Virus record (IMG/VR): IMGVR_UViG_2703718872_000034
Source of the DNA: a virus
Taxonomy: Duplodnaviria > Heunggongvirae > Uroviricota > Caudoviricetes
Length of the DNA stretch: 37,292 nucleotides
Strand: one strand, 5' to 3'
Shown: positions 1-30,990 of the stretch, piece after piece
Position numbering within the stretch: the first letter of the stretch is position 1
Layout: the number at the start of each line of letters is the position of its first letter
The notes under the pieces: model-generated
What the model was told of the DNA's origin: nothing
Seen by the model: only the letters and a program-made list of their open reading frames with translations
The model's database searches: none
Translations under genes and position numbers: made by a program

Positions 1-2091
1 ATGTATGTCATTGCAAAAGAACTGATTGGCGCGCCCGGAATGCCTGCTACAACAAAAGGTATTCGCCAGGCATTACAACGTTACGTACAAGGGAAAAGCT
101 GTTGTTCCCGTCGTCGCTCAGGCTCTAAAGCAACTGAATACAGCATCGACTGTTTACCTGAAGTGACGCAGCAGGCATTACGTGAACGCTATGCCCTGCA
201 ACTGATGACGCAAAAAGCCGATGAATCACCGGCTCCGGTGGTGACAAAGGCCAGGCGCTCACCTGCCGTGGTTGATGCGGTGGAGGCATATCGCGGATCA
301 CCCCAACTGATGGTCGAACGCCTCAATGCCCTGACTGAAAATCAGCGCCAGGTGGCTGATGCACGAATCGCGATCGTCAGCGAAGTTCTGAAAGTCGCGC
401 AACAACCTGGTTTCAGCTGTGCGAAGGCTATCCGGTTTATCGTTGACAACCTGGCACGTTCGCAGCTGGACGAGCGCATTGTGGCAATGGTTGAGACGGC
501 GAACGCCAAAAAGGGAAACAGCCGCGCGTTGAGTGAAATCACGCTGAAACGCTGGATTGCAGCCTTTAACAAGGCGCAGAACGCCGCTGAACGCCTGCTT
601 TTGCTGGCACCGGGTAAACGCCAGGAAATAAAAGCCGAAGATATTAACTGGCTGCCCGAATTTCTGGCGCAGTATCGCCAGTCAAACGGCCGACCAATGA
701 CCGAGGCTTACGAGGATTTTGTTGCTGAATGGCAGCACCGGCACGCTGATGAGCCTTATATGCTCGATATCATGCCGTCTTATGACACCATTCGCCGCGC
801 AATGAAGAAACTGCCGGAAGTGGTGAAACAAAAAGGCCGGGTGACAGGCAGTGAATACCGTCAGCTTGAGGGATTCACGCGCCGCGACTGGTCCAGAATG
901 CCGGTGAATTATGTCTGGATTGGTGACGGTCACGGCATGAAGATGAAATGCAGGCACCCGGTTCACGGTCGGCCATTTGCACCGGAAGTGACCTTTGTTA
1001 TCGACGGTGGCACGCGCTTTGTGGTGGGCTGGAGCCTTGACCTGGCTGAAAATGTTTTCGCCGTAGCCGGTGCCATACAGCACGGCATTCGCCATCACGG
1101 CAAACCGTTTCTGTATTACTCGGATAACGGCTCCGGGGAAACCGCCGACATCCTGGATAAGGAGGTTGTGGGGATCCTGCCGCGACTGGGGATTAATCAC
1201 CCAACCGGGATTGCCGGTAACCCGCAGGGACGGGGCATTATCGAACGGCTTAACCGCACGTTACCGATGCGCATAGCCCGTAAATACCGCACCTATATCG
1301 GGAAAGGTGCAGATCGCGAGACGTTACGCAAAACCAACCGCGATTTACGCTCGGCATTTACTGCCCTGCAACAGGGCAAACGGCTGAACGCCCGGCAGCA
1401 GTCAGCGATGCGTGATTTACCGTCCTGGTCTGAACTGATTGATGCCATTCGTGACGGTGTTGAGTGGTACAACAACCGGCCGCACGATGAATTACCCATG
1501 AAGCCGAACGGGAAACATTACAGCCCGGCGGAGTTCAGAAAAAAACGCCTGGCGGAAGAGGACACTGAAATTGAATGGCTGTCCGATGTTGAGCTGCGGG
1601 ATATGTTCCGGCCGATGGTGGAACGCCCTGTAAGACGCTGTGAAATACGCTGGCTGAATAATATTTACTACGCGCCCGAGCTGCGTGATGAGCATGGCCG
1701 CAAGGTGCTTATCAGCTATGACATTCATGATGCCGAACGAATTACCGTACGTCGCCTGGATGGCAGCGTGATTTGCGAGGCGGTATGGGACGGTAATAAA
1801 CGCGAAGCCTTCCCGGTCAGCGCGGAATACTACAAACAGCAGCAACGCCTTAAAGGCATGCGTAAACGCGCAGAGGAAAAAATCCGCGATGCTGAGGATG
1901 AAGTGGTTAACGTGCTGGAGCACAAGCCGCAGGAGCCATGGCTGGAAAACATCTACCGCCCGGTGGGTAATACGGTGACCGTTCAGCGACCAGCCGTTGA
2001 TGATGAACCTGATGAAGAATACGAGCGTAATTTCCAGCGGGGATTGCAGTTGCTGGAAGCGAAATTAAAAGAAAATGACCCGCTGGCCTGA
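1..2091 (+). CDS. A: Mu-type transposase A
   Basis: 696-aa ORF; N-terminus resembles the MuA N-terminal DNA-binding region; WIGDGHG segment matches the region of the first catalytic Asp of MuA; followed by a MuB-like gene; start coincides with window edge so the true start could lie upstream. Confidence 0.88.
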   Translation: MYVIAKELIGAPGMPATTKGIRQALQRYVQGKSCCSRRRSGSKATEYSIDCLPEVTQQALRERYALQLMTQKADESPAPVVTKARRSPAVVDAVEAYRGSPQLMVERLNALTENQRQVADARIAIVSEVLKVAQQPGFSCAKAIRFIVDNLARSQLDERIVAMVETANAKKGNSRALSEITLKRWIAAFNKAQNAAERLLLLAPGKRQEIKAEDINWLPEFLAQYRQSNGRPMTEAYEDFVAEWQHRHADEPYMLDIMPSYDTIRRAMKKLPEVVKQKGRVTGSEYRQLEGFTRRDWSRMPVNYVWIGDGHGMKMKCRHPVHGRPFAPEVTFVIDGGTRFVVGWSLDLAENVFAVAGAIQHGIRHHGKPFLYYSDNGSGETADILDKEVVGILPRLGINHPTGIAGNPQGRGIIERLNRTLPMRIARKYRTYIGKGADRETLRKTNRDLRSAFTALQQGKRLNARQQSAMRDLPSWSELIDAIRDGVEWYNNRPHDELPMKPNGKHYSPAEFRKKRLAEEDTEIEWLSDVELRDMFRPMVERPVRRCEIRWLNNIYYAPELRDEHGRKVLISYDIHDAERITVRRLDGSVICEAVWDGNKREAFPVSAEYYKQQQRLKGMRKRAEEKIRDAEDEVVNVLEHKPQEPWLENIYRPVGNTVTVQRPAVDDEPDEEYERNFQRGLQLLEAKLKENDPLA

Positions 2092-2167: not shown

Positions 2168-3100
2168 ATGACCGATATTAACGATGTAATCAAGACCATT
2201 GATGAACTTATTGATGGCGGCGTACTGACGCAGTATGTCATCGCCAGAGAGGCGGGAATTTCCGACGGCACATTATCGGCTTTCCGCAAAGGGAAATATA
2301 AAGGAGACAATGATGCTATAGCAGCGACTATGCTCTCCTGGTACAAAGACTGGAAAAAGCGGCCTTCCCTGCCGGAACCGCCGCAGTTTGTGGAGACACC
2401 GACGGTACGGGAACTGCGGGCGGTGTTTCAGGCGGCACGCCTGATGGGCTGTATTAACATCATTGTGGGCGTACCAGGTGTGGGTAAAACAGTCACCGCC
2501 AGCAATTATTGTCAGGAGCAACCGAACACCTGGATGATCACCCTGTCTCCCGCGCATTCCAGCGTCACTGAGTGTCTGCTGGAGCTGGCAGAGGAGCTGG
2601 GGATTGATTACACCCGCGCGAACAAGGGGGCGTTATCCCGCGCCATCCGCCGTCGCCTGATGGGAACGCGTGGACTGGTGATTGTGGATGAGGCGGATCA
2701 TCTTGGTATTGACGGTCTGGAGCAGATCCGGGCAATCCAGGACGCCACGAGTGTAGGGATGGTGCTTATCGGTAACCCGAAAGGACTGTTCTCAGAATCG
2801 CGTAGTGACACGAATAATTTAGCACGCCTGTTCAGCCGTATTGCCAGGGTTAAACAGTTGCATGAGGCCAAAAAAGAGGATGTGCTGGATATTGCCGGAG
2901 CATGGGGTATCAGTGGAGAGGAAGAGCTGGACGCCATGCAGGCTATCGCTGAAAAACCGGGAGCATTACGCGTTCTGACACATACGCTTAACCAGGCATG
3001 GATCGCTGCCAGCGGTGAAGGTACGACGCTGACAAAAAAACACATTAATACGGCCTTTAAAGAGGTTTATACAGAACCCGATTCGCTATTAAAGGTGTGA
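2168..3100 (+). CDS. B: transposition ATPase MuB-like
   Basis: 310 aa, Walker A GVPGVGKT, size and position immediately after A as in Mu; RBS GAGG upstream of ATG. Confidence 0.88.
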   Translation: MTDINDVIKTIDELIDGGVLTQYVIAREAGISDGTLSAFRKGKYKGDNDAIAATMLSWYKDWKKRPSLPEPPQFVETPTVRELRAVFQAARLMGCINIIVGVPGVGKTVTASNYCQEQPNTWMITLSPAHSSVTECLLELAEELGIDYTRANKGALSRAIRRRLMGTRGLVIVDEADHLGIDGLEQIRAIQDATSVGMVLIGNPKGLFSESRSDTNNLARLFSRIARVKQLHEAKKEDVLDIAGAWGISGEEELDAMQAIAEKPGALRVLTHTLNQAWIAASGEGTTLTKKHINTAFKEVYTEPDSLLKV

Positions 3101-3102
3101 TT

Positions 3103-3324
3103 ATGGTTGTATTTAATATTCCTGATATTTACGGACGCTTTTACCTGATTAATTTCGATAACGTGAAGGTGATTTCACTGGCCGAAAATAAAGAATGTGG
3201 CGATTTACTTTTTGAATTTAATGACCGCACACGAATGGTGATATCTGCCGGACTTGATCGCGAAGGTGCGACAGAAGTTTACAGCGGAATATGCCGTTCT
3301 GTTGGTGCGAAACAAGTCAGCTAA
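3103..3324 (+). CDS. small early protein, possible Kil-like by position and size (73 aa)
   Basis: ORF overlapping B stop; first gene after B as kil is in Mu; no motif recognised. Confidence 0.35.
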   Translation: MVVFNIPDIYGRFYLINFDNVKVISLAENKECGDLLFEFNDRTRMVISAGLDREGATEVYSGICRSVGAKQVS

Positions 3325-3336
3325 ATGAGGTGTTAT

Positions 3337-3594
3337 ATGAATATGCAATCCTGCGGTAACAAAATGAATTTATTCGACTCCCTGAACAGCGCGCGCCGTC
3401 TGACCGAACTTGCCGGTGCGGTACTGGAACGCAGCAAACGCTACCCACAGCGCTTTGCACTGAAAACCACGCCGCCGGTAGGTGAGGTTCAGGGGAGTGG
3501 TGAGGAAATTGAAATCACCGTTAAGACCAACGGCCTGCGCCGCCGTGTGAAGGCCACCCGTATAAGCGGATGCACGGTTTACTGGGAAGTATGA
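3337..3594 (+). CDS. hypothetical early protein
   Basis: ORF with GAGG RBS before ATG at 3337; longer ORF from 3325 possible. Confidence 0.35.
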   Translation: MNMQSCGNKMNLFDSLNSARRLTELAGAVLERSKRYPQRFALKTTPPVGEVQGSGEEIEITVKTNGLRRRVKATRISGCTVYWEV

Positions 3595-6499: not shown

Positions 6500-7051
6500 A
6501 TGATGATATTACAACCCATGGGACGAAAAGGTCGGGCACCCGCTCATGTCCGCGCATGGACACCTGAAGAAGATGCACTGCTGATTGCGCTTTATCCATC
6601 CACCCCGGTTAAGGATATTGCTGTCAGAGTAAAAAGAAGTTACTGGGGAGTATATAACCGGATTGTTTTATTACGCGGTACTTACCCGGAGTTGCTCAAA
6701 TGCAAACGTCCCAGATTTAAACATGATGAAGATAAATTTATCCGAAAAAATGCCAGAACAATGACCGGTAAGCAAATAGGAGAATATCTGGAGCGAGACC
6801 GGGATTCTGTCCACAATCGGGCGCGATATATTGGCGTAAGCATGAAAAAATACGGAGAATTACTGCCTTTTACCCGCATACCTGACGATGATGTTCATCT
6901 TATTCGTGAATTACGGGATGCTGAATCACCACGACGTCTTACCTTCCGGGAAATAGGCGAGAAATTTGAATTATCCGAGAGTACGGTGAATTTTATTTAT
7001 CACCATCGCCGGACTGCCGGGGATGTTGTATTACGGGAGTTAACGCCATGA
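6500..7051 (+). CDS. hypothetical protein with three internally repeated helix-turn-helix-like segments
   Basis: 183 aa; repeated segments PVKDIAVRVKRSYWGVYNRI / MTGKQIGEYLERDRDSVHNRARYIG / LTFREIGEKFELSESTVNFIYHHRR. Confidence 0.45.
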   Translation: MMILQPMGRKGRAPAHVRAWTPEEDALLIALYPSTPVKDIAVRVKRSYWGVYNRIVLLRGTYPELLKCKRPRFKHDEDKFIRKNARTMTGKQIGEYLERDRDSVHNRARYIGVSMKKYGELLPFTRIPDDDVHLIRELRDAESPRRLTFREIGEKFELSESTVNFIYHHRRTAGDVVLRELTP

Positions 7052-7517: not shown

Positions 7518-7805
7518 ATGGAAAAAGAAATCAAATTTGCTCCTAAAGATATCGACGAAGAACTGGCTAAAATCGGCATGCTTGAACGTATGCGGGACAT
7601 TATCGAATATGCGATAAAAGAAAATCTTGCAGCCAGAGAAGCCCTTTTGATAATGGAGCGGGAGATTAACCTGATTAAGGATGCTGTATCTCTGGATAAT
7701 AAAATAGCCCGCGAGGAATACGTTCGCCGCAGGCTCGGTGTTGATGGTTCAGCAATTCTTACATCTGAACATTATGCAAAAATTTTTAATCTTTTTCAGC
7801 GGTAA
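7518..7805 (+). CDS. hypothetical helical protein
   Basis: ORF, ATG at 7518 just after previous stop; 3' end overlaps convergent minus-strand ORF. Confidence 0.4.
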   Translation: MEKEIKFAPKDIDEELAKIGMLERMRDIIEYAIKENLAAREALLIMEREINLIKDAVSLDNKIAREEYVRRRLGVDGSAILTSEHYAKIFNLFQR

Positions 7806-8025
7806 TCCCCATGCAGGCCCGGAGATTGTCGAAATGCCAGTCGGTATTAATATATGAGCCATCCTGGATCTCTTCTGCATTTTCCGGGGTAGAGTTTTTT
7901 TGAGCGAGATTGATAATATGTATTGCCTCCTCACGGGAAATAACCCCCTTATCGAACAGGGTTACCATAAGATTTCCAGCCATTGTGAATGCGGCAACAT
8001 CAAGGGCATTTTTTATATCTGACAT
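7786..8025 (-). CDS. hypothetical protein (79 aa) encoded antisense to the early operon
   Basis: Minus-strand ORF with AAGGAA RBS about 8 nt upstream of ATG; only minus-strand gene in the early region. Confidence 0.4.
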   Translation of the reverse strand: MSDIKNALDVAAFTMAGNLMVTLFDKGVISREEAIHIINLAQKNSTPENAEEIQDGSYINTDWHFDNLRACMGITAEKD

Positions 8026-8053: not shown

Positions 8054-8081
8054 GGCGGTGCGGTAACACCGCCCATTTTTT
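8054..8081 (+). terminator. intrinsic-terminator-like hairpin (GGCGGTG / CACCGCC, loop CGGTAA) followed by T6
   Basis: Perfect 7-bp GC-rich inverted repeat plus TTTTTT read directly from sequence, 15 bp upstream of the GemA-like start. Confidence 0.45.
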
Positions 8082-8095
8082 ATGGAGCCACGATA

Positions 8096-8608
8096 ATGAA
8101 TCGCGCTTCCCTGATTACCTTAATACATGTCGCAAAACGCGATCTACAGCTTGACCGGGAGACCTATACATCCGCGCTGCTGGCAGCCACCGGCAAAACC
8201 AGCTGCCGGGATATGTCACCGGATGAGTTATCCCGCGTGCTGGATGTTTTCAAAAAACGCGGTTTTAAAGTGCGTCAGAACCCGGTTAACCGGGCCTTAA
8301 AACCGGGTACAGTGACCGCTAAAATTCGCGCCATCTGGAAGGTGATGCACCGGCAGGGCTTTATCTCTGATGGTGCGGAAACCGCTCTTAACCGCTGGGT
8401 GAAATCGCAGACGGCCGCGCAGAACGGCGGCGAAGGTGTGGCAAACTGGCAGTGGCTGGAGCAACACCCCGCCCTGGCCTCAGATGTGCTGGAGCGTCTC
8501 AAGCGATGGCACCGCCGCAAAATGCTGGCCGCGATGGGAATGCCCGAACGCACGCTGATGGGGTATGACGCCGTTTGCAGGCAGTATGAAAAATCACTTC
8601 CCCGTTAA
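8096..8608 (+). CDS. GemA-like protein (Mu gp16 family)
   Basis: 170-aa ORF in the position of Mu gemA, before the Mor/C gene; GGAG RBS; family assignment by recall only. Confidence 0.55.
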   Translation: MNRASLITLIHVAKRDLQLDRETYTSALLAATGKTSCRDMSPDELSRVLDVFKKRGFKVRQNPVNRALKPGTVTAKIRAIWKVMHRQGFISDGAETALNRWVKSQTAAQNGGEGVANWQWLEQHPALASDVLERLKRWHRRKMLAAMGMPERTLMGYDAVCRQYEKSLPR

Positions 8609-8612
8609 CCCC

Positions 8613-8644
8613 AAATCCCGCCACAACGCGGGATTTTTATTTTA
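8613..8644 (+). terminator. rho-independent terminator (9-bp stem AAATCCCGC / GCGGGATTT, loop CACAAC, T-rich tail)
   Basis: Perfect inverted repeat followed by TTTATTTT, immediately after GemA-like stop. Confidence 0.7.
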
Positions 8645-8677
8645 AACTTACCGGGAACGCGAGAACCGGAGGCTGAT

Positions 8678-9103
8678 ATGGCAGAAACTCAGATGAGCAT
8701 GTTTGGTGGTGACAGTGAGCAACTGCACGCCCTTATCGACCGCCTTGATGACATCCCTGATGATGTTCTCAAAAAGAACTGGCCGCGGACCCTGTCTGAA
8801 CTGGTTGAAGTCACCGGCGCAGAACTTCAGCGTCAGGGGATTGAGCCGGTACTGGCCGGTAAACTGGCACGCAAGGTGGCTGCGGCTCAGGCAGCCTATA
8901 TGGGCGGACGGGGTTATTACCTGCCGGTCGGGGAATCTCTCTTTGCCGAGCTGCGAAACAATGAGATATTTTCGCGCTGGGACCGGGGCGAGAAGATTGA
9001 ATCCCTTCGCCGCCATTACCGGATGTCAGAAACCCAGATTTATACCGTCATACGTGAACAGCGCCGTCTGCATCTGGCAAGAACGCAACCGCCACTTTTC
9101 TGA
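8678..9103 (+). CDS. Mor/C-family transcriptional activator of middle/late genes
   Basis: 141 aa; C-terminal HTH-like segment SLRRHYRMSETQIYTVIREQRR typical of Mor/C family; located just upstream of lys; GGAGG RBS; cannot decide between Mor and C. Confidence 0.7.
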   Translation: MAETQMSMFGGDSEQLHALIDRLDDIPDDVLKKNWPRTLSELVEVTGAELQRQGIEPVLAGKLARKVAAAQAAYMGGRGYYLPVGESLFAELRNNEIFSRWDRGEKIESLRRHYRMSETQIYTVIREQRRLHLARTQPPLF

Positions 9104-9174
9104 TATTCCGCAAAGCCTGCCGCCTTTCCTTCACCGTTACGCTGACTCAGAGAACATCATGAGACAGCGTAACA

Positions 9175-9675
9175 ATGCCAAAACTCCCCGCACCACTGCG
9201 TAAAAAGCTGATTGCCCTTGTTCTGGCCGGTGCCGGGACGTTCACGATTGCCACGCATTACACCGGTTACTGGGAAGGGAAAGAAAACTCCACGTATATC
9301 GATCCCACCGGTACACCCACCATCTGTTACGGCCATACCGGCCCGGATGTGAAACCGGGTATGACCCTGACGGATGAAGAATGTCTGAAACTGCTGGAAA
9401 AGGACATGAAATGGGCCTTTGCGGCCATTGATCGGCGTGTTCAGGTGCCGCTTACCCGTGGTCAGACGGTGGCGCTGGCTTCGTGGATCTTCTGGGCCGG
9501 TGAAACGAACTTTCGCAACTCCACGCTTCTGCGCCTGATCAATGCCGGACAGATGCCCGCGTCCTGTAAGCAGTATATCCGCTGGATTTATTCAAAGGGG
9601 GTGAAACTTCCCGGCCTTGAGGCCCGCCGTTCGGCGGATGAATGGTTATGTCGCTACGACTTGCCGAAAGTCTGA
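9175..9675 (+). CDS. lys: SAR endolysin (phage lysozyme, T4-lysozyme-like fold)
   Basis: 166 aa; N-terminal hydrophobic signal-anchor LIALVLAGAGTFTIA then E...D...T catalytic spacing (WEGKE, YID, TGTPT). Confidence 0.85.
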   Translation: MPKLPAPLRKKLIALVLAGAGTFTIATHYTGYWEGKENSTYIDPTGTPTICYGHTGPDVKPGMTLTDEECLKLLEKDMKWAFAAIDRRVQVPLTRGQTVALASWIFWAGETNFRNSTLLRLINAGQMPASCKQYIRWIYSKGVKLPGLEARRSADEWLCRYDLPKV

Positions 9676-9748
9676 ACCGCTTCTGGCGACCGCTCATGAT
9701 AGCGCTGCTGTGTGCGGTACTGCTGTTACGGGGTGTCCTGTGGCTGCG

Positions 9749-16901: not shown

Positions 16902-17076
16902 TTGTTTAAGGTATGCAAATGCATTACCTTACCCCCTTCAGGCGCGTGTCGTGATTTTCTAACCTGTATTTAACGGGCTTTAAAATCTGCGTGAAGCGCC
17001 TTTGCATTTTTCCCTGAAAATACTTCCTGAAATCCCGCAAAACCCGCCCTGAAAATTCCCGGCTTATGCTGCCGGT
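16902..17076. promoter_or_regulatory. G-I intergenic region: candidate late promoter region and candidate central strong gyrase site
   Basis: 175-bp non-coding gap with three CCTGAAA(A)T direct repeats; Mu has its strong gyrase site and the I-operon late promoter in the G-I intergenic region near the genome centre. Confidence 0.4.
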
Positions 17077-18210
17077 ATGAAGACAGAAAATCACCCAAAA
17101 GACGCAAATCGCCCCTCTGGTTTAGCCGTGCTTTCAGCTTCGCTGACTGCATCCGGCGACGGATGGTGTCAGTTACTGCCAGCAGGCAGGGTAAAGGCCC
17201 GTGACGGTCGCCCGGAAAAACCGGCTGAAGGCTGGCTGATTAACGAATCCGCCTGTAACCGGATGAAAGCCGGGCTTTCCGCCCTGAATCAGCCGTTACT
17301 GATTGATTATGACCATCACTCCATGAATGCGCAGAAAAACGGATTCAAGGCCATTGCCGCAGGTTGGGTTAAGCCGGAAAACATCGAATGGCGTGAGGGG
17401 CAGGGGATTTTCATTAAACCTGAATGGACGCCGCAGGCCCAAAAACATATTGATGACCGTGAATATGCCTATCTGTCTGCGTATATGCATTATTTCGCTG
17501 ACACCGGGGAACCCTACCTGTTGCGCATGGCTTCCCTGACGAATGATCCAGGTATTACGGGTATGAACCCTGTCGCAGCACTCAGTGCTGACGATCTCTA
17601 TGTAGTTTCCCCTTCTCAGGAGCAACACCCCATGAATGAGCAATTACGCCAGTTGCTGACGGCGCTCGGTCTGACCGTGGCTGACGGTGACGAATTTACG
17701 CCGGAGCTGGGCACGGCGGCGCTGTCTGCCCTCACCGGGATCAAAACCCGTGCGGATGCACACGACAACCTGAAAACACAGGTCGCCAGTCTGTCGGCAG
17801 AGCTGGAAACCGCAAAAGGCACACCGGCTGGCGGCAGTATTGATCTGACGAAATACGTGCCCGTTGAAACGTATAACGCCCTGCGTACCGAATACGTTGC
17901 ACTGTCGGCGCAGCACGGCAGCACCACGCTGGAGCAGGTGCTGGACAAGGCTGAATCCGAAGGGCGCATCTTCAAAAGCGAACGCGGCTATCTGGAACAA
18001 CTGGGTGGGCAGATTGGTGTTGCTGCACTTTCTGCACAGCTTGACGCCCGACAGCCGGTTGCGGCCCTGACCGGCCTTCAAACCGACACCGTAACCGTGC
18101 CGGATAAAAAGACTGCCACCGCTGTGCTGTCGGCTGAAGATATCGCGGCCGCCAAACTGCTGGGTAAAACCGAAGCCGAGTTCCTGAAAATGAAAGAGGA
18201 AATGCAATAA
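17077..18210 (+). CDS. head protease/scaffold protein, Mu I-like
   Basis: 377 aa; position between G and major head protein; Ala-rich helical C-terminal half consistent with scaffold; start uncertain. Confidence 0.65.
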   Translation: MKTENHPKDANRPSGLAVLSASLTASGDGWCQLLPAGRVKARDGRPEKPAEGWLINESACNRMKAGLSALNQPLLIDYDHHSMNAQKNGFKAIAAGWVKPENIEWREGQGIFIKPEWTPQAQKHIDDREYAYLSAYMHYFADTGEPYLLRMASLTNDPGITGMNPVAALSADDLYVVSPSQEQHPMNEQLRQLLTALGLTVADGDEFTPELGTAALSALTGIKTRADAHDNLKTQVASLSAELETAKGTPAGGSIDLTKYVPVETYNALRTEYVALSAQHGSTTLEQVLDKAESEGRIFKSERGYLEQLGGQIGVAALSAQLDARQPVAALTGLQTDTVTVPDKKTATAVLSAEDIAAAKLLGKTEAEFLKMKEEMQ

Positions 18211-20800: not shown

Positions 20801-22215
20801 TGATCAACTTTGATTCCATCAGTAATACAAACCGTATTCCGCTTTTTCAGGCGGAATTCAATAACTCCATGGCGGTAACCGGTACTCCGCCGCAGCGTCA
20901 GTGTGTCCTGTTGTTCGGACAGAGAAGTTCTTCTGTTGGTGGTGTTATTAACGTTCCGTACCGTATCACAAGGGCAGAACAGGCCGCCGAGCGCTGGGGA
21001 AGAGGCTCCATGATTGCCCGCATGGTGGCTGAATTTATTGCCATCAATCCTGATACAGAACTGTATGCCATCGCACAGGATAACGGGACAGGCAAAAACG
21101 ACGCCGGAACGATTACGATGAGCGGAACATCCGTTGTTGACGGTGTGCTCAGTATTTATATCGCCGGTAAGGGGTATCCGGTGGCTGTCAGCAAAGGAGA
21201 AAAAGCGGCGGATGTTGCCGGAAAACTGGCTCTGCTCATAAATCAGGATCTGGATGCGCCTGTTGCTGCTGTGGCAAACGCCCCGTCAGACAATAGTGAT
21301 GCCACAAAAAAAGTCATCGCACTGTCAGCAAAGTTCGTCAGCGAGTGTGACCATGATGTCCGGCTGAATTATTACCCGGAGGATGTTACTCCGCTGGGGA
21401 TTACCGTGATCATCTCCGGTCGCTCAGCCGTCCCCAAAAACCCGGATATCACCCGCAGCGTGGCTGCGATGGGGGATCGGCAGTACAACTATATCGTCAT
21501 GCCGTATAAAGATGCAGCCAATCTGAAGATTCTGGCGAACGAACTGCTGACGCGCTGGGGACCGGAAAAAATGAATGATGGTATGGTCTGGATGGCGCAT
21601 ACCGGTACGTTTGGTAATGTGTCCAGCTTCGGGGAGTCCAGAAATGATTTTCTGTTTACCTGTACCGCGATCCCAAAAGCACCGGAGCCGGATTATATCT
21701 GGGCAGCCACCCTGTGCGCCACCTGTGCGCCGTCTTTATCAGTCGATCCGGCACGACCTCTGCAATCTCTGGCATTGCCTTCCCGACTGGCTCCGGCATT
21801 GTCTGCCCGCCTTACAAATGAGGAACGAAACAGTCTGTTGTATACGGGGATTTCCACGGTAACGGTGGGAGCCGGTGATGTGATGCAGATTGAGCGTCAG
21901 GTGACCATGTATCGCCAGAACGCATACGGCGAAAGCGATCCCAGCTATCTGGATGTGGAAACCATCTACACCCTGTCATATCTGCGTTACTCCCTGCGGG
22001 TATTCATTACACAGCGTTTCCCCCGCCATAAACTGGCAGATGACGGAACGCCAGTTGGTCCCGGACAGTTCATTGTGACACCGCAGATCATGAAGCTCCA
22101 GTTGATTGCTCTGGGTGAAGAGTGGATTGAACAGGGGCTGGTCGAGAATATGGAGGTTATCGATAAAGGTTCCTTTGTCCGGGATATCCGCGCCATTCTG
22201 GTCCCTGCGCAGGTA
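20800..22215 (+). pseudogene. tail sheath gene, N-terminal fragment (about 472 codons), disrupted by inversion
   Basis: ORF 20800..22485 is chimeric: protein-like up to about 22215, then runs antisense through the fibre gene; the in-frame continuation is found on the minus strand at 30977..30850 ending just before the tube gene RBS. Confidence 0.7.
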
Positions 22216-22683
22216 ACGGTTATCACCTTCGCTCTTGCTGTAAACATCCAGATTATTACGGGCGGTTCCCTTATTCTCCAGGTCGGCGAGATTCTGATCC
22301 TTCGCCAGGGCATTAACGTCACCGGGACCAAGACTGTTTTTTGTGGCAAGCGTCCCCAGACCAAGATAACCACGGGCCAGACGCTGGGCCTCCGCACCGG
22401 CATCAGCAATTTCTTTCAGGTTATTTTTCCGGGAAAAAGCATTCGCAGCGATAATGGCTTTAATAGACAGCGTAAGCTGGTTTAACTGCGCCTTATCCGG
22501 CTGAATACTGGCTTCAGCCAGAATATTCAGCAGTTCGGCCTGGAGAATATTCAGCCAGTCCTGACCAATCCAGCTGATACCTTTTTGTCCGTCACCTTCG
22601 GTAAACCAGGTGGTGGTATTACTCTGCGCCGGTGCCAGCGCAGGCATATTCGCCACGCCGGAATTATTATCAACATGAAACAT
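22211..22683 (-). pseudogene. tail fibre gene constant (N-terminal) part Sc, separated from its variable part by inversion
   Basis: Minus ORF with GAGGAGGAGAA RBS and TAATG overlap with upstream gene; fibre-like NLGLG/GDNRY-type sequence up to codon 157, then read-through into antisense sheath sequence; rejoins in frame with Sv at the gix site. Confidence 0.65.
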
Positions 22684-23243
22684 TAAATATTCTCCTCCTC
22701 GTGACTGTTTGCATACACGTAAATAAACGTCTGCCATGCAGGCTTATAACGGTTCAGAATACATTCCAGCGCACCGCCCTCATAAATACGCAGCGGCGTG
22801 AGAATATCATCCAGCACATTCATATTCCGGTAGCCGGTTTCACTGTTTATCGTGACAATACTGACCCACTGTGAATCCGGTGATGGCTGAATATCTATTT
22901 CATAACCAAACTCTGCCGCAAACCGGATATAAAATTCACGGTTCAGCGAAGGCTTCATCCGGTATTTATTCCCGGCATAACGCTGTCGTTCTGTGATGGT
23001 GGCTCCGGCCATATCACACTCGGGAAGGCCGAGATAACGCTCCCAGTCTTCCAGAAGCAGACGGGAACTGTCAGGGAAACGTTCTGCCAGCAGTTGTTTT
23101 CCCGTCCATGCAACACGTTCGGTGGAATGGCTGAGGCCAAGGCATAACGCAGCCAGTACGGATGACGGCCGCTTGTCCCAGGCCAGTCCGTCAGGCAGCA
23201 ACTGCAACAGGGCGCGCTGATGCGGAGTGAGGGTTACAGCCAT
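22683..23243 (-). CDS. baseplate/tail protein (Mu gp48-like, P2 gpI-like)
   Basis: 186 aa; position upstream of fibre gene; overlapping stop/start. Confidence 0.7.
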   Translation of the reverse strand: MAVTLTPHQRALLQLLPDGLAWDKRPSSVLAALCLGLSHSTERVAWTGKQLLAERFPDSSRLLLEDWERYLGLPECDMAGATITERQRYAGNKYRMKPSLNREFYIRFAAEFGYEIDIQPSPDSQWVSIVTINSETGYRNMNVLDDILTPLRIYEGGALECILNRYKPAWQTFIYVYANSHEEENI

Positions 23244-24319
23244 GTGATTTCCCCCACTGTCAGCAGCTCACTGTCCCCCGCCTGAACCGACGTCAGCGGG
23301 CTGCGCACTTCAAAATCCTCCAGATTTTTCACCCCCGCCACGGCACGCCAGAAAGACGACGCCAGAACCAGACCGCCGGGCCGGGATTCGTTGTATAACA
23401 GGTCAGTCAGTGCCTGTTTTACGGCCGCCTGATTCTCCGGTGTTTTCGGGATGATCCTGATACTGAAGGGCACTGGCTTATTGGTCAGTTTAAACACGGT
23501 CACCGTCGGCCCCAGCGGCTGACCGACAGGCTGACCGGTCGCCGGATCATCATGACTGCGGATATAATCCGCCACACGTTTCACATCACCTTCACCGGGA
23601 AAAATGTCCGGGTTGTTGTCCTGAACGAACGTCACCCCCACGCTGCCCGCCTGCGGCCATTCCGGGCGGCACCATGCCCGCGTCACCCCCGGCACTTCAC
23701 GCGCCCAGCGTTCAAAATCGTACTGCGTGCCGCCGGACGGCGGATTCTGCACCCGGAAAACCAGGCGGGAAAGCAGCTCCGGCACCGTTTCCACATCCGC
23801 ACCACCGGTGATCCCTGTTCCGGTCACCGTGGCCGTCTGGTTGATCCCCGCCTGCGGAGTGACAAACGTCAGTTTCGTCCCTGCCGGGGCATTTCCCGCA
23901 CGACCGGCACTTTCGGCCTCCACACTGACATTCAGCGTACCGGCTTTACCGGTCAGTGAGGAGGTGATGCGGTAAACCACGCCGTCACTGCGCTGGAGAA
24001 GCACACCTTCCGTGATCCCCGCATCCGTGGTCAGCATCAGCTGAACCGGCCCGTCACCCCGTGAGGCGGGTTTACGCATGACACCCCAGAAAGCGCAGTG
24101 CTTCAGCAACTCGGCTTCATCGGCTTCTGTCGGGATGATCTGACGTGCAATCCAGGCCAGATGTTCATGCTCCTGTGCAGACAATCCTGCCTGAGCATAC
24201 GCAATGGCATTCAGGGTGGTTTCATTCACGCCCGGCTGCGAACCGGGAAGACGCTGGCTGATATCCTGCTGTGTCTGCGTGATTAATTGTGCCAGCGGTA
24301 AAGGCTGATAAGGCATCAC
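23234..24319 (-). CDS. baseplate J-like protein (Mu gp47-like)
   Basis: 361 aa; position and size. Confidence 0.75.
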   Translation of the reverse strand: MMPYQPLPLAQLITQTQQDISQRLPGSQPGVNETTLNAIAYAQAGLSAQEHEHLAWIARQIIPTEADEAELLKHCAFWGVMRKPASRGDGPVQLMLTTDAGITEGVLLQRSDGVVYRITSSLTGKAGTLNVSVEAESAGRAGNAPAGTKLTFVTPQAGINQTATVTGTGITGGADVETVPELLSRLVFRVQNPPSGGTQYDFERWAREVPGVTRAWCRPEWPQAGSVGVTFVQDNNPDIFPGEGDVKRVADYIRSHDDPATGQPVGQPLGPTVTVFKLTNKPVPFSIRIIPKTPENQAAVKQALTDLLYNESRPGGLVLASSFWRAVAGVKNLEDFEVRSPLTSVQAGDSELLTVGEITWL

Positions 24320-24753
24320 TCCCCCTTAAGATCAGCATAAAAAATCATGGGTCTTACCGAACCATCAGGCAGGGTTATGCGCACCGAAAGCGCCAGCCGC
24401 GCGTGTCCCACACGTTCTGCATGACAGACCACGGATGACGCCACGCCATCCTGACTGAGCCAGCCCAGCGCCTCATCCGCGTAGGCACGGGCACGGCTTA
24501 TCACGGAGACCAGCGTTTTTTCCCGGCTGAGAAGCCACAGACGGGAGCCAATGGGGCGCGGGCGAAAACTGTCTCCCCACCATCCCCGGCGGTCACGTGT
24601 GCCATCAGGGATTTCATCCGATGCCAGTGCCCGGCGGTCAGTAAACAGTGAAATCAGAACCGCTGTCAGCAGGCTGTCATCTGTCAGCAGGTCTGCACCG
24701 TTCAGTTGCAGCGAACCGCATCCCTGATCCCACACAATTGCAATATCAGCCAT
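24316..24753 (-). CDS. baseplate wedge protein (Mu gp46-like)
   Basis: Start placed at internal ATG 24753 with AGGAG RBS, 145 aa; longer ORF to 24876 lacks RBS. Confidence 0.65.
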   Translation of the reverse strand: MADIAIVWDQGCGSLQLNGADLLTDDSLLTAVLISLFTDRRALASDEIPDGTRDRRGWWGDSFRPRPIGSRLWLLSREKTLVSVISRARAYADEALGWLSQDGVASSVVCHAERVGHARLALSVRITLPDGSVRPMIFYADLKGE

Positions 24754-25360
24754 TCTCCGGCGCTCCTGTCTTACTGCCTTCACCGTTATCATGATGTACA
24801 TGGCCGGAATAGGTGATTCCCGCAATAACAGCCTCGGACATCGTGAACGTACCCTGTGATTTTCCTGTGCCGTCAATGGTCAGATTACCTTTGATATGCA
24901 GGTTTTTATCCACCGTGACATTGCCTGTAAAGGTGGCTTCCGGTGTATCCACCTGAACACCTTCATCGGCGTAAATTTCCAGCGTCTTACAGGTCACAAT
25001 GATCCGACCGTTCTTTGTCAGACGTATACGGTGCCCCTCATGGTGATACACGCCGGTATCTCCGGCAGTGAGTCCGGTCGGGCGACTGCGGCGGTCTTCC
25101 ACCACAAGCACCACGGTCTGATCACGCTGCCCGCCCAGACAGGCAAAAAAGGTTTCCGCACCCGGCAGGGGAACACTGATCTGCCCGTACTGCTGGGGAC
25201 GCTCCACATCATCAAAGGTTTCGCCGTCCATGCCGGTGAGCTGCACATTCTGCATTTTCAGTTCGTCATGTGTGCCGGTCAGAACGCCCCGGCCAAACAG
25301 CAGGCGAATGCCGCGCGTTACCGGGGCAATCAGGCGGCTGAACACTTCATCATTCATCAA
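24746..25360 (-). CDS. baseplate spike/assembly protein (Mu gp45-like, gpV-like)
   Basis: 204 aa; position between P-like and wedge genes. Confidence 0.7.
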   Translation of the reverse strand: MMNDEVFSRLIAPVTRGIRLLFGRGVLTGTHDELKMQNVQLTGMDGETFDDVERPQQYGQISVPLPGAETFFACLGGQRDQTVVLVVEDRRSRPTGLTAGDTGVYHHEGHRIRLTKNGRIIVTCKTLEIYADEGVQVDTPEATFTGNVTVDKNLHIKGNLTIDGTGKSQGTFTMSEAVIAGITYSGHVHHDNGEGSKTGAPENG

Positions 25361-26474
25361 AGCTAATCCCCTGTTTTTTCATCTGCTGGCGAATAAAGGC
25401 ATCAACATCATCACCGGAACCACCACGGCCCTTACTGTCCGGCTCTGCCGGAACGATAAAGCCGTCACGCGGTGCCAGTACCAGCCGGGTGACTTCCCCG
25501 TTCTGCTCATCCAGTAAAAACTCCACCTGGCAGACCAGCAGTTCAGTCTGTTCGATACCGAAACGCAGGGCTGAAACACCGGTCAGCAGATTGACATCCC
25601 ATAACCGGCCATCATCCCGGAACCAGCCACGCACGGTGGCGGAAAACCGTTCTGAACGGGCAACCGCACGGCGCATCTCCCGCAGGGCGCGCTGCCGTGC
25701 ACCGGTGGAGTCTGTCTGCTGATCGGCGAGGATGATTTTCGGCCGGTAGCGACCGATCTGCTCATCACTGATGATGCCCACTGGGGCCGCCAGCCGGGCG
25801 GCAGATTCGCTGTCTCCCCGTTTGCCACCACCGCGTCCATGCCCCCGGACACGGTATTCGCTGTATCGTCCTCGCCAGTCCGTGTTGTAATCGGCATCAA
25901 GCAGGTTTTCCCCCAGCACCAGTCTGTCCGTCTGCTGATTTCCTGCCTGGGTGAACACCAGATCACCGTCAGCATTACTGGTCACCAGCACCCCACGATG
26001 CCGGGCCGCACGGGTCAGCGCATCCGCCACGGTTTCTGAGTTTTCCAGGGTAAAAGAGCTGAAGGGGCGTGCAGCCGTGTCGTCGTTAACCTGCCAGCGC
26101 ACGGCTATTCCGAAGGGCGCACATAAATCTGCGGCAATCTGTGCCAGCGTCCGGTTTCGCCACTGGCTGCCGGGATGGATGGCGGCACAGTCCACCAGGT
26201 CGCCGGTTTTATCCCGACCGTTAATGCTGATCTGATGACGGGTTGCACTGATCCGCTGACTGACCTGATCCAGCCAGCCACTGATGACAGTCTGCCCGTT
26301 AATTCTGAGCGTCAGGGACTGACCGGTCCGCAGGGCTGAGGGGATGCGCTCACCGGGCAGCATCAGCCCCAGTTCAAACGACCCGGCCAGATGCTCCAGA
26401 GAACGACGGACGCTTACCGTCAGCCAGCCGGAAAAAATACTGCCGCCAATATACAGCTCAATCCTGCTGCTCAC
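25350..26474 (-). CDS. tail protein P-like (Mu gp44, P2 gpD-like)
   Basis: 374 aa; position after N-like gene. Confidence 0.75.
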   Translation of the reverse strand: MSSRIELYIGGSIFSGWLTVSVRRSLEHLAGSFELGLMLPGERIPSALRTGQSLTLRINGQTVISGWLDQVSQRISATRHQISINGRDKTGDLVDCAAIHPGSQWRNRTLAQIAADLCAPFGIAVRWQVNDDTAARPFSSFTLENSETVADALTRAARHRGVLVTSNADGDLVFTQAGNQQTDRLVLGENLLDADYNTDWRGRYSEYRVRGHGRGGGKRGDSESAARLAAPVGIISDEQIGRYRPKIILADQQTDSTGARQRALREMRRAVARSERFSATVRGWFRDDGRLWDVNLLTGVSALRFGIEQTELLVCQVEFLLDEQNGEVTRLVLAPRDGFIVPAEPDSKGRGGSGDDVDAFIRQQMKKQGISFDE

Positions 26475-27816
26475 TAATCACCTCCACACTGCGACCACCA
26501 GGAACAAAAACCGGATCAGGGATGTTGTTCCTGCGGACAAAATACTGCCAGCGACGGCTGTTGCCGGTGGCACGGTACAGCGTGACCAGTGCCGGTTCGG
26601 TGGTTCTCACCATGACCAGAGAAGCACCGGGAAGATGCACGCTACGCGTTGTTAAATCCTCTGTCAGCGCAAGCCTGGCATCACGTAATGCAAGGGCGGT
26701 TCCGGTATGGCCCTGTGCGGACAAATCCAGCACCTGTTGTTCCAGGGCATCACTCAAATCCCGGTTGATCCGCTGCACATCGGCAGAACTTTCCAGCCAG
26801 GCCAGTCCGCCCTCCCGGTCTGTATCCTGAACGTGCGTCGCACTCTGCCGGACGACCTGATCCAGCAGTTTTCCTACCGTCTGCGCCTGTGACACCAGGG
26901 TTGCGCTCTGCATGACTGTCCGCAGCAGACGGATATTTTTCTGTGCCGCAGGCGTCAGACCAATCAGGATCTGCGGATCATCCTGCCCGCTGAGGGTATA
27001 ACGCAGGGAAGAAAGTGTGCGGTACAGTTGCGGCATTGCCTGCTCTGTCATGCTGTCACGATTTGTGGTCAGGCTGCCGGACGGCGTTGCGGCCTTCCCG
27101 GTCAGTGACAGGGAAGGATCGCCGGGCAGTCCCGTCAGCACCGCAAACATTCCGGCCAGAGATTCAGCCATGCGACGGGGCGAATTAATCAGGGCGGCAG
27201 CATTCCCTTTCAGGGCAGTGAAACTGGCCGTAAAGGCACTGATATCCTGCACAATCCCCATTCCCGAAACGGCATTCTCCAGCGCATCAATTTTATCGCT
27301 GATGGTGTCGGTCATGGCCTGCACATCATGCAGGCCGTCTGAAATCACTGTCCAGCCGTCTGAAAGCGTGTTAAACAACTGATTCATTGCTGAACCGCTT
27401 TTCTGCTCCAGAACGGCAGCCGTGTCTTCAGCCACCGCCGGTGCGGTATCGTCACTGGCGGGGATCACGTTGATCGTGAACTCAACCGTTCCCTGTTCGC
27501 TGGCGTTATAACGGCTTTCAAAGCTGTTTATCAGCACGTTTAAGGTGCCATAATCCGGGTGCATCAGTTCACCGGCACCGGGTGCCCGCAGCGCATCCCG
27601 CAGGCGGCTTCGCTGCGTCTGAAGATCATCGCCGATCACAAGAGCCGTGAATGTAAACTCCGGGAGTTTTGGCCCCAAATCATCCGCGCCGCCGCTTTCC
27701 CGCAGAGGATATTCACGGCGCACAATGTTACGTCCGCCCCGTTCCCGTTGTTCCTGATAAATCAGAAACGGCACACCACGAAAGGAGCCACGCCCCGGCG
27801 TGTCAGTAGAGGCCAT
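26458..27816 (-). CDS. DNA circularisation protein N-like (Mu gp43)
   Basis: 452 aa; position directly after tape measure. Confidence 0.75.
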   Translation of the reverse strand: MASTDTPGRGSFRGVPFLIYQEQRERGGRNIVRREYPLRESGGADDLGPKLPEFTFTALVIGDDLQTQRSRLRDALRAPGAGELMHPDYGTLNVLINSFESRYNASEQGTVEFTINVIPASDDTAPAVAEDTAAVLEQKSGSAMNQLFNTLSDGWTVISDGLHDVQAMTDTISDKIDALENAVSGMGIVQDISAFTASFTALKGNAAALINSPRRMAESLAGMFAVLTGLPGDPSLSLTGKAATPSGSLTTNRDSMTEQAMPQLYRTLSSLRYTLSGQDDPQILIGLTPAAQKNIRLLRTVMQSATLVSQAQTVGKLLDQVVRQSATHVQDTDREGGLAWLESSADVQRINRDLSDALEQQVLDLSAQGHTGTALALRDARLALTEDLTTRSVHLPGASLVMVRTTEPALVTLYRATGNSRRWQYFVRRNNIPDPVFVPGGRSVEVISEQQD

Positions 27817-29857: not shown

Positions 29858-29984
29858 GGATTACTGCTTCGTTCTGAGAATTTTTTCCGTTTGTTGGCAG
29901 TGCCGGTAAAGTTGCGATAAGGGGAGGTTAAGTGCCCATTCCGGGCCGCTTCTGGTCACCATCCCCAGCACTATTGCCGCTTCT

Positions 29985-30461
29985 TCAATCTGCGCCCGAC
30001 ACTGCGCCTGCTCGCCCCCGATCAGCCGCCAGCTTTCCGGCAAGCGCTGTATCCAGCAGGCTGACCGCTGCCATCAGACGGGAGAGATCGCGCTCGCTTA
30101 ACTGTCCAATCTGGCGTTGTGACAACGGCCCCTGAATGTCACCGACAGCGGCAATCTGGCGACGCAGCAGCGCAATACCGCGCAGGGCCGGTGATGCCAC
30201 CAGAACCGGGCCATTTCGGGTTTCCATAAGACGTTCAGCATCGGTTTCCGCATCAATGCTGTCTTTCGCCGTCAGTTCACGGAAGGTGACGCGGTATTCA
30301 CGGGATTCCCCGAACGGCAGACCGTCGAGCAGATCCACATAGCCTTTCGCCAGTTGTTCAGCCAGACCGGCGGTGCGTGGATCGCCGTCCTCAAGTGCAT
30401 CACGGATAGCCTCAATAACGGCTTCGTCAGAAACCGCTGTTTTTTTCTTACGTGTGGTCAT
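29985..30461 (-). CDS. tail assembly chaperone (Mu gp41-like)
   Basis: 158 aa acidic protein between tube and tape measure; overlapping alternative-frame ORF 29861..30043 at its 3' end. Confidence 0.6.
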   Translation of the reverse strand: MTTRKKKTAVSDEAVIEAIRDALEDGDPRTAGLAEQLAKGYVDLLDGLPFGESREYRVTFRELTAKDSIDAETDAERLMETRNGPVLVASPALRGIALLRRQIAAVGDIQGPLSQRQIGQLSERDLSRLMAAVSLLDTALAGKLAADRGRAGAVSGAD

Positions 30462-30475
30462 TTTATTTTTCCTGA

Positions 30476-30841: not shown

Positions 30842-30849
30842 GTCTTACC

Positions 30850-30977
30850 TCACAAAATGAAACGGATCTGCGCTGCCATGAAGCGGAACTGGTTAACCAG
30901 ATCCGGTGTACACATCACATCCAGACGGTTACGATCAGTTGTGTTACGCTCCACAAGCAGATTGTTTTTAAATACCT
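30850..30977 (-). pseudogene. tail sheath gene, C-terminal fragment (about 42 codons plus stop)
   Basis: Minus-strand frame ...VFKNNLLVERNTTDRNRLDVMCTPDLVNQFRFMAAQIRFIL-stop ending 9 nt before tube start; in frame with sheath N-terminal fragment across shared AGGTA. Confidence 0.6.
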
Positions 30978-30990
30978 CGGTTTACGGGAA
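30965..30990. other. gix-like recombination site, hybrid (degenerate left half, consensus-like right half GGTTTACGGGAA, centre TC)
   Basis: Right half nearly identical to the reverse complement of the left half of the site next to gin; resembles the Mu gix consensus core AAACC-NN-GGTTT. Confidence 0.6.

What the first reader, a model, noticed from the sequence alone, without database searches (positions are those of the whole stretch)
8613..9103. Only one Mor/C-family activator, preceded by a strong terminator
Mu uses two homologous activators in a cascade: Mor, the last early gene, turns on C, which turns on the late genes. Here I find a single Mor/C-type gene (8678..9103) between the GemA-like gene and lys, separated from gemA by a strong terminator. 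Either the cascade is shortened to one step or the second activator is too divergent to recognise (see the triple-HTH protein).
Basis: partly seen in the sequence, partly recalled or inferred. Interest (0 to 1): 0.4.

Follow-up and report, generated by a model that had tools for sequence, protein, structure and literature searches.

The report
Single C-type late activator behind terminator
This Mu-like E. coli prophage has one Mor/C-family activator, a counterpart of Mu's late activator C placed behind a terminator and just upstream of the lysis genes, so its cascade has one activator step instead of Mu's two, a layout already reported in other Mu-like phages.

Summary
Observation confirmed. 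Gene 8678..9103 matches Pfam Mor (E 2.8e-32). An intrinsic terminator (8613..8636 plus a U-tract, -13.5 kcal/mol) starts 5 nt after the gemA stop. No second Mor/C gene exists in the window: Pfam on about 60 ORFs, a custom HMM on the six-frame translation and hhalign all found one hit. The same HMM finds both Mor and C in Mu.

The protein resembles C, not Mor: 39% vs 27% identity, and PDB matches of 1e-26 vs 2e-9. It has both beta-clamp motifs described for MuC, and it sits directly upstream of lys. mor and Mu's gp18-20 are missing.

All 40 related loci (44-100% identity) and a complete sister prophage also carry a single copy. The gemA-activator-lys block is in 231 of 5,426 complete E. coli genomes. 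Niu et al. 2015 already described Mu-like phages with one activator next to lys.

Two C-type late promoters are recognisable, upstream of lys and of I.

A -10-like hexamer with no -35 abuts the terminator's T-tract and is conserved in relatives. I infer, without proof, that terminator read-through ignites a promoter activated by the gene's own product.

The "triple-HTH" protein is not a hidden second activator.

Ordinary overall; modest interest.

The parts
8054..8073 (+). First hairpin, GGCGGTG-CGGTAA-CACCGCC followed by CATTTTTTAT, just upstream of gemA. It is terminator-like. The dyad sequence is conserved in relatives and in Mu.
   Evidence: Terminator scan; fold -14.8 kcal/mol. GGCGGTG-N6-CACCGCC is also present upstream of gemA in L025, L035, L042 and Mu. 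In Mu it lies within the annotated 'semi-early promoter'.
8096..8608 (+). gemA-like gene, the last gene before the terminator.
   Evidence: Pfam GemA, 2.5e-28; 44% identical to Mu GemA by tblastn.
8613..8643 (+). Intrinsic terminator: stem AAATCCCGC/GCGGGATTT (8613..8621 and 8628..8636), loop CACAAC, then the T-tract TTATTTT.
   Evidence: The arms are invariant in 6 lineages. With the 3' arm in the correct register, 98% of cells pair and there is no covariation (slide -1). The same hairpin word is common in unrelated phage contigs.
8638..8648 (+). Candidate -10 of a promoter for the activator gene: TATTTT (8638..8643) or TAAACT (8643..8648). It overlaps the end of the terminator's T-tract. There is no -35.
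   Evidence: Relatives have TATAAT or TATACT 4-5 nt after GCGGGATTT. Window TAAACTTACC aligns with L041 TATACTTACC. A -10 match of at least 5 of 6 is seen in 4 of 5 Mor/C-linked lineages, against 20 of 155 control hairpin contexts. Function as a promoter is inferred.
8678..9103 (+). The only Mor/C-family gene, C-type, 141 aa.
   Evidence: Pfam Mor, 2.8e-32. BLASTP against Mu C: 39% identity, 105 bits; against Mu Mor: 27%, 51.6 bits. PDB: C 1.1e-26, Mor 2.1e-9. Invariant G76 G77 Y81 P83 G85. N-terminal QMSMF and C-terminal QPPLF match the clamp-binding motifs described for MuC.
9100..9143 (+). Candidate late promoter P_lys: box CTGATATTCCGCAAAGCCTGCC (its CTGA includes the activator's stop codon) and the -10 hexamer TACGCT (9138..9143).
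   Evidence: It aligns column for column with Mu Plys/PI/PP/Pmom and with the P_lys and P_I of five relative lineages. The leader TCAGAGAA is shared with Mu Plys. The composite pattern occurs only twice in the window.
9175..9675 (+). Endolysin gene (lys), the first late gene.
   Evidence: Pfam Phage_lysozyme, 7e-37.
17027..17070 (+). Candidate late promoter P_I: box CTGAAATCCCGCAAAACCCGCC and the -10 hexamer TATGCT (17065..17070), which ends 6 nt before the ATG of gene I (17077).
   Evidence: Relatives have GTAA(A/T)CCC 28 nt upstream of CACACT or GACAAT, the same spacing as Mu PI (ATAACCCC ... CAAACT).
6500..7051 (+). The 'triple-HTH' protein, considered as a hidden second activator and rejected.
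   Evidence: PHROG 323 'transcriptional regulator, D5-like', 2.8e-56. hhalign against the Mor/C family: 6.9%. No similarity to Mu gp12. Not detected (E <= 1e-5) in L035, L036, L037, L039 or L041.

Best explanation
The window is a Mu-like prophage of E. coli whose lytic cascade has one activator tier instead of Mu's two.

The product of 8678..9103 is the counterpart of Mu's late activator C. It is predicted to bind boxes at about -50..-32 of promoters that have a -10 but no -35. Through them it would switch on the lysis/packaging operon (P_lys, 9100..9143) and the head/tail operon (P_I, 17027..17070).

mor and Mu's small middle genes are absent. Early transcription coming from the left end meets two hairpins. 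The second (8613..8643) is a canonical intrinsic terminator placed 5 nt after gemA, so the activator gene is insulated from the early operon.

How the activator gene is ignited is inferred, not shown. A small fraction of early transcripts reads through the terminator and makes a little activator. A -10 hexamer without a -35 abuts the terminator's T-tract. This would be the positional analogue of Mu's terminator/Pm composite. It would then be activated by the only Mor/C protein available, the gene's own product, giving a self-reinforcing switch.

The two beta-clamp-binding motifs suggest that, as for MuC, activity is coupled to replication.

Shown: a single gene, its C-type identity, the terminator, and the clade-wide layout. 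Inferred from sequence: the two late promoters. Hypothesis only (about 0.4): read-through ignition and positive autoregulation.
For: Single copy. Control on Mu. Complete sister prophage. Forty related loci, each with one copy between gemA and lys.

C-type identity:
- tblastn best phage matches are Mu, D108 and SfMu C.
- BLASTP 105 bits against C, 51.6 bits against Mor.
- PDB: C 1.1e-26, Mor 2.1e-9.
- 139 of 144 family representatives, and the window protein by +53 bits, score higher against C than against Mor.
- N-terminal QMSMF and C-terminal QPPLF match the two clamp motifs reported for MuC. Mor has only a partial N-terminal one (PMC12867686).
- The gene lies immediately upstream of lys, as C does in Mu.

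Terminator.

Late promoters:
- The composite CTGA-N6-9-NAA[ATG]CC[CT]-N18-21-[TC]ANNNT occurs exactly twice on both strands, upstream of lys and of I.
- A related composite pattern gave 5 matches (the only two exact ones are these two sites) where shuffles gave a mean of 0.59.
- Both sites align with the four Mu late promoters and with 10 promoters of relatives, in the same register.
- That register agrees with the published C site centred at -43.5 (PMC2582627).

Promoter next to the terminator:
- TATAAT or TATACT lies 4-5 nt after the hairpin in lineages L039, L042, L041, L037 and L062, while the flanks are unconserved.
- It is far less frequent after the same hairpin elsewhere: 20 of 155 contexts.
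- By my reading of the sequences, the -35 positions match TTGACA at only 1-3 of 6 bases.
- In Mu, the predicted terminator lies inside the annotated Mor-dependent Pm.
Against: No experiment bears on this prophage.

The exact hairpin word AAATCCCGC-N4-8-GCGGGATTTTT is found in at least 120 viral contigs. Only 14 of 116 of those loci have a Mor/C gene. Its conservation, and the resemblance of its left arm (AAATCCC) to C boxes (TAATCCC), may therefore mean nothing.

In the window the candidate -10 is weak (4 of 6). It also lies 25 or 30 nt from the AAATCCC element, against 26 nt in the window's own late promoters.

The half-site spacing in the putative self-promoter differs from that of the late promoters.

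A PWM trained on the relatives' late promoters ranks the hairpin arm only 13th in the window and is not specific.

Some relatives (L025, L036, L044) lack the hairpin upstream of the gene.

In the L041 lineage the same hairpin/-10 composite also precedes a moron, which could mean it is an ordinary constitutive promoter.

No PP- or Pmom-type site was found.
Confidence: 0.75

Rival explanations
1. The activator gene has no promoter of its own. It is expressed only by partial read-through of the terminator(s) from the early (or gemA) transcript, and the -10-like hexamer after the hairpin is fortuitous. The terminator simply attenuates and delays activator synthesis.
For: The hairpin is a generic terminator word found in many unrelated phage contexts. 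The window's own hexamers are weak (TATTTT or TAAACT, 4 of 6). Relatives L025, L036 and L044 lack the hairpin. In Shewanella MuM16-1 the single activator gene overlaps gemA, so it is plainly part of the early operon.
Against: Five or six lineages keep a 5-6 of 6 match to TATAAT at a fixed 4-5 nt after the hairpin, while the rest of the spacer has diverged. Only 13% of control hairpin contexts have such a match.
Confidence: 0.3
2. A second, unrecognisably divergent activator exists and plays Mor's role at the promoter of 8678..9103. Candidates are the triple-HTH protein 6500..7051 or another early protein.
For: 6500..7051 falls in a PHROG annotated as a transcriptional regulator. Several early ORFs have no known function.
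Against: No window protein resembles Mor/C by HMM or profile comparison. 6500..7051 has no detectable homologue in relatives L035, L036, L037, L039 or L041, which share the layout and (except L036) the hairpin/-10 composite. A non-homologous regulator cannot be excluded by sequence.
Confidence: 0.1
3. The prophage is a decayed Mu relative that lost mor by deletion, and its late regulation is broken.
For: This particular copy does carry a disruptive 8.8-kb inversion in its tail genes.
Against: The single-gene layout is shared by all relatives at 44-100% identity and by 231 complete E. coli genomes. It is also reported in inducible Mu-like phages of other genera. The gene is intact with a good SD, and the inversion is unrelated to the regulatory region.
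Confidence: 0.03

Closest known systems
[quoted passage not shown]
   Same: Same family and same subtype: 39% identity over 137 aa, and the best PDB matches are 9l0x and 9vw8. Both clamp-binding motifs are present. The gene is immediately upstream of lys. Target promoters have a -10, no -35, and a box at about -50..-32 in the same register. A terminator precedes its transcription unit.
   Different: In Mu, C is the fourth gene of a middle operon driven by Pm, which needs Mor. Here there is no Mor and no gp18-20. The box sequence differs: CTGA-N8-AAA(A/G)CC here, against the published TTAT-N5-6-ATAA. Only two late promoters are recognisable, not four.
Phage Mu Mor and the terminator/Pm composite
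   Same: In both, a terminator hairpin directly after the last early gene overlaps the promoter for the next tier.
   Different: Similarity to Mor is much lower (27%, 51.6 bits). mor overlaps gemA inside the early operon, whereas this gene lies beyond the terminator. In Mu the hairpin itself is the Mor dyad, centred at -43.5. Here the hairpin centre would lie at about -29 to -31 relative to the candidate -10.
Single-activator Mu-like phages 3927AP2, phiMhaMu2 and SuMu (Niu et al. 2015, PMC4553209); also Pasteurella Pmp9 and Shewanella MuM16-1
   Same: One Mor/C gene after gemA, followed in the Pasteurellaceae phages directly by lysis genes and with no second activator. Only one hit was found within +/-1.5 kb in Pmp9 and MuM16-1.
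   Different: Those authors read the gene as mor, with C missing. Here the sequence says C-type with Mor missing. Pmp9 has no hairpin upstream. The MuM16-1 gene overlaps gemA. The enterobacterial clade is terminator-insulated.

Membership tests
[quoted passage not shown] | Full-length match to the family profile above the curated cut-off | tested here: met
   111.3 bits against a cut-off of 24.9, profile positions 2-107 of 107. Custom HMM 1.8e-49.
[quoted passage not shown] | Small protein (about 100-150 aa) with an acidic N-terminal half and a basic C-terminal half (PMC2582627) | tested here: met
   141 aa. Net charge -4 for residues 1-70 and +4 for residues 71-141.
[quoted passage not shown] | Invariant linker/beta-strand residues (C: G70 G71 Y75 P77 G79) followed by a C-terminal HTH | tested here: met
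   G76 G77 Y81 P83 G85 are invariant or nearly so in the alignments. The HTH region aligns with C residues 103-122.
[quoted passage not shown] | Binds a dyad-like box overlapping the -35 region of promoters that have a -10 but no -35, and activates sigma-70 RNA polymerase | not testable with these tools
   Candidate boxes and -10 hexamers are found upstream of lys and I in the register of Mu's late promoters. Binding and activation were not measured.
C subtype (late activator) rather than Mor subtype | Closer in sequence to Mu C than to Mu Mor | tested here: met
   105 against 51.6 bits. PDB 1.1e-26 against 2.1e-9. Mu C against Mu Mor themselves score 76.6 bits.
C subtype (late activator) rather than Mor subtype | Two beta-clamp-binding motifs: N-terminal Qx[DE][LM]F and C-terminal QPDLF. 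Mor has only a partial N-terminal one (PMC12867686). | tested here: met
   N-terminal QMSMF (S in place of D/E, as allowed by the general QL[SD]LF consensus) and C-terminal QPPLF. Clamp binding itself was not tested.
C subtype (late activator) rather than Mor subtype | Gene lies outside the early operon, behind a terminator, directly upstream of lys | tested here: met
   Terminator at 8613..8643; gene at 8678..9103; lys at 9175. Mu map for comparison.
Mu-type three-tier cascade (Mor then C then late genes) | Two paralogous Mor/C genes in one genome | tested here: not met
   One hit only in the window, in the sister prophage and in all relatives. Two hits in the Mu control.

The most novel reading that the evidence does not exclude
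The intrinsic terminator that ends the early operon is at the same time part of a promoter activated by the gene it insulates. A trickle of read-through makes the first C-type activator. That activator, perhaps helped by the replication clamp, then drives its own promoter. A terminator-gated positive-feedback loop would thus replace Mor as the timer between early and late transcription. In some relatives the composite has been copied to drive morons.
Probability: 0.35. Interest if true: 0.55.

Novelty: new member of a known kind. Interest (0 to 1): 0.3.

Why it matters
It shows that Mu's textbook Mor-then-C relay is not needed in this clade. In these enterobacterial relatives, one C-type activator sits at the early/late boundary.

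Because the gene is walled off by a terminator and no Mor is available, how it is first switched on becomes a concrete, testable question. The candidates are read-through, self-activation, or coupling to replication through the clamp.

The prophage family is common in pathogenic E. coli: 231 of 5,426 complete genomes, including O157:H7. Its induction logic therefore has some practical relevance. The basic layout, however, is already published for other Mu-like phages.

Tried and rejected
1. Searching species-representative genomes for relatives. The single protein found nothing, and a narrower alignment found only Edwardsiella. IMG/VR gave the useful set.

2. A PWM of the right half-box, or the whole box, trained on the late promoters of relatives and Mu. 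It was too weak to pick promoters in the window: 18 hits of at least 10 bits, and the window's own P_lys and P_I were not in the top 16. I dropped it in favour of a composite box-plus--10 pattern.

3. My first argument that invariant hairpin arms prove an activator box. The same hairpin is widespread in viral contigs without Mor/C genes. Another invariant hairpin sits upstream of gemA, including in Mu. So I downgraded autoregulation to a hypothesis.

4. The search for PP-type (inside N, minus strand) and Pmom-type (upstream of com) sites found nothing convincing.

5. The structure string was mis-registered by one column. The slide -1 row is the correct hairpin.

6. Triple-HTH protein as a hidden Mor: rejected.

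7. PubMed 9454718, on Mu's 'semi-early promoter', is not held.

Full report
**What the window is.** It is a Mu-like prophage that runs from the ATG of transposase A (1..2091) to mom (36555..37292).
- Early region: B, gam, a gp11-like gene and gemA.
- Late region: lys, spanins, terminase, portal, F, G, I and T.
- Tail and right end: tail genes, gin and com (Pfam).
- Two Stx-converting phage records carry a 97%-identical Mu-like insert.
- The gemA-activator-lys block (8090..9680) is present in 231 of 5,426 complete E. coli genomes. RefSeq annotates it there as 'gp16 family protein | Mor transcription activator family protein | lysozyme'.

- ORF 8678..9103 (141 aa, SD GGAGG 5 nt upstream) matches Pfam Mor end to end, E 2.8e-32.
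- Five bases after the gemA stop lies AAATCCCGC-CACAAC-GCGGGATTT followed by TTATTTT. It folds at -13.5 kcal/mol, z = -4.2.
- A second hairpin with a T-run (8054..8073) precedes gemA, so gemA is bracketed by two terminator-like hairpins.

**There is only one family member.**
- Pfam scans of about 60 ORFs found no other Mor hit.
- I built an HMM from 146 diverse family members taken from an exhaustive search of 1.84 billion representatives, plus Mu Mor and Mu C.
- I ran it with all filters off on every stop-to-stop frame of at least 20 aa. It gave one hit (1.8e-49); the next best was E = 1.5.
- The same HMM finds both C and Mor in Mu.
- It finds one gene in the complete sister prophage, including its c/ner end.
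- It finds one gene in each of 39 IMG/VR loci and an Edwardsiella locus, spanning 44-100% protein identity with up to +/-10 kb of flank (where the contig allows).
- hhalign of 40 window proteins against the family alignment gave 100% for this gene and at most 6.9% for anything else.

**Which activator is it?** It is C-like, on four counts.
- Sequence: 39% identity and 105 bits against Mu C, 27% and 51.6 bits against Mu Mor. Mu C against Mu Mor scores 76.6 bits.
- Solved structures: C 1.1e-26, Mor 2.1e-9.
- Motifs: QMSMF at the N-terminus and QPPLF at the C-terminus. These correspond to the two beta-clamp-binding motifs shown to be needed for MuC function. Mor has only a partial N-terminal one (PMC12867686).
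- Position: it sits directly upstream of lys, as C does in Mu.

In Mu the order is gemA/mor (overlapping), then a terminator inside Pm, then gp18-20, C, a terminator with Plys, then lys. Relative to Mu, this phage therefore lacks mor and gp18-20.

**Targets.** I aligned candidate promoters on their -10 hexamers.
- The regions upstream of lys and I in the window fall into the same columns as Mu Plys, PI, PP and Pmom. The same is true in five relative lineages.
- The alignment shows a left element (CTGA, TTAA or CTAA) at about -50, and a right element (TAA[A/T]CCC; AAA[A/G]CC in the window) at about -39..-32.
- The right element starts 26-28 nt upstream of the -10. This fits the published C site centred at -43.5 (PMC2582627).
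- The window's P_lys shares the leader TCAGAGAA with Mu Plys.
- The composite pattern occurs only at these two places in the whole window.
- I found no PP- or Pmom-type site.

**How is the activator gene itself turned on?** This is the open part.
- Relatives with only 44-57% identical proteins have the same hairpin, followed after 4-5 nt by TATAAT or TATACT. The flanks are unconserved.
- The window has TATTTT and TAAACT at the same place.
- By my reading of the sequences, the -35 positions match TTGACA at only 1-3 of 6 bases. This looks like an activator-dependent promoter abutting the terminator, and it recalls Mu's terminator/Pm composite.
- The only Mor/C protein available is the gene's own product. 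I therefore propose ignition by terminator read-through followed by positive autoregulation.

**A control forced me to weaken this.**
- The exact hairpin word occurs in at least 120 viral contigs. Only 14 of 116 of those loci carry a Mor/C gene.
- So the invariant arms, and the likeness of AAATCCC to C boxes, prove nothing.
- What remains specific is the -10. Four of five Mor/C-linked lineages have a match of at least 5 of 6, against 20 of 155 control contexts.
- The geometry in the window is also imperfect: 25 or 30 nt from AAATCCC to the hexamer, against 26 nt in its late promoters.
- Some relatives lack the hairpin.
- I give autoregulation about 0.4, and read-through alone about 0.3.

**The rival 'hidden second activator'.**
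- 6500..7051 is a PHROG 323 'D5-like transcriptional regulator'.
- It is unrelated to Mu gp12 and is not a Mor/C relative.
- It was not detected in relatives L035, L036, L037, L039 and L041, which keep the same layout.

**Comparison with what is known.**
- Niu et al. 2015 (PMC4553209) already noted that the Mu-like phages 3927AP2, phiMhaMu2 and SuMu have lys immediately after a single activator gene and lack a second one.
- Pasteurella Pmp9 and Shewanella MuM16-1 show one hit within +/-1.5 kb.
- In MuM16-1 the gene overlaps gemA, which is the Mor-like wiring.
- In the enterobacterial clade it lies behind a terminator, which is the C-like wiring.
- The finding is therefore a new member of a known kind, with one testable twist.

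**Verdict.** Interest is modest (0.3).

Noticed in passing
window 22153..30978 (junctions at about 22155 and about 30976); gix site at 32394..32413: An 8.8-kb block carrying tail genes M through R, plus the 5' part of the tail-fibre gene, is inverted relative to the 97-98% identical sister prophage. The crossover lies in the core of a gix site (sister: TTATCGATAACCTC|GGTTTACGGGAA) and in a pseudo-gix inside the sheath gene L. L loses roughly its last 45 codons (now encoded on the minus strand between ~30978 and the tube gene M) and the fibre gene is split. This looks like an aberrant Gin-mediated inversion that should disable tail production. The normal L-M junction is in 40 complete E. coli genomes; the window's junction is in none of 5,426.
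   Followed up: partly
window 17049..17079, and the same place in L029, L035, L038, L041, L042, L039: The -10-like hexamer of P_I (TATGCT; CACACT or GACAAT in relatives) ends exactly 6 nt before the ATG of gene I in seven lineages, and there is no Shine-Dalgarno sequence. The I mRNA would therefore be leaderless. The hexamer sits in the loop of a hairpin whose stem sequence differs between lineages but still pairs (CCGGC/GCCGG, CCGGC/GUCGG, GCUGCC/GGCGGC, CCGCC/GGUGG, CCCCC/GGGGG). Mu instead has a 30-nt leader with an SD. The purpose of the hairpin is unexplained.
   Followed up: partly
window 8054..8073; L025, L035, L042; Mu L001 at about 1694..1713: The dyad GGCGGTG-N6-CACCGCC just upstream of gemA is conserved in sequence between this prophage, distant relatives and Mu itself. 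In Mu it lies inside the annotated 'semi-early promoter'. It may be a protein-binding site as well as, or instead of, a terminator.
   Followed up: no
relatives L025, L019, L036, L041; L154 (reverse strand) 3001..3580: The gap between gemA and the activator gene is a hot spot for inserted cargo (0.65-1.5 kb). In the L041/L154 lineage a 140-aa protein with a signal-peptide-like N-terminus is flanked on both sides by copies of the hairpin + TATACT composite.
   Followed up: partly
window 7786..8025 (-): A 79-aa ORF on the opposite strand fills the 290-bp gap between the gp14-like gene and gemA. It matches PHROG 32893 (unknown function) at 2e-45, so it is probably a real antisense-oriented gene inside the early region.
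   Followed up: no
whole window: The 9-mer AWATYCCGC occurs 12 times against about 2 expected (0 of 100 shuffles reach 12). The exact AAATCCCGC also occurs at 29792..29800 (-), inside the start of the tape-measure gene, and at 35177..35185 (+), in a hairpin right after the 680-aa gene. The enrichment is not explained by the two late promoters and the terminator alone.
   Followed up: no
window 33131..35503: Downstream of gin, where Mu has only com and mom, there is a 680-aa protein with a SASA acetylesterase domain and DUF6645 (possibly a tail spike or receptor-modifying enzyme). There is also a DUF1378 ORF and two minus-strand ORFs of unknown function (35410..36286).
   Followed up: no
window 36356..36601: The listed com ORF starts at a TTG. 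The zinc-ribbon match begins at residue 16, and an AGGAGG precedes the ATG at 36402, so com probably starts there. The upstream region carries clustered GATC sites, as Mu's mom control region does, but no recognisable C-type box.
   Followed up: no
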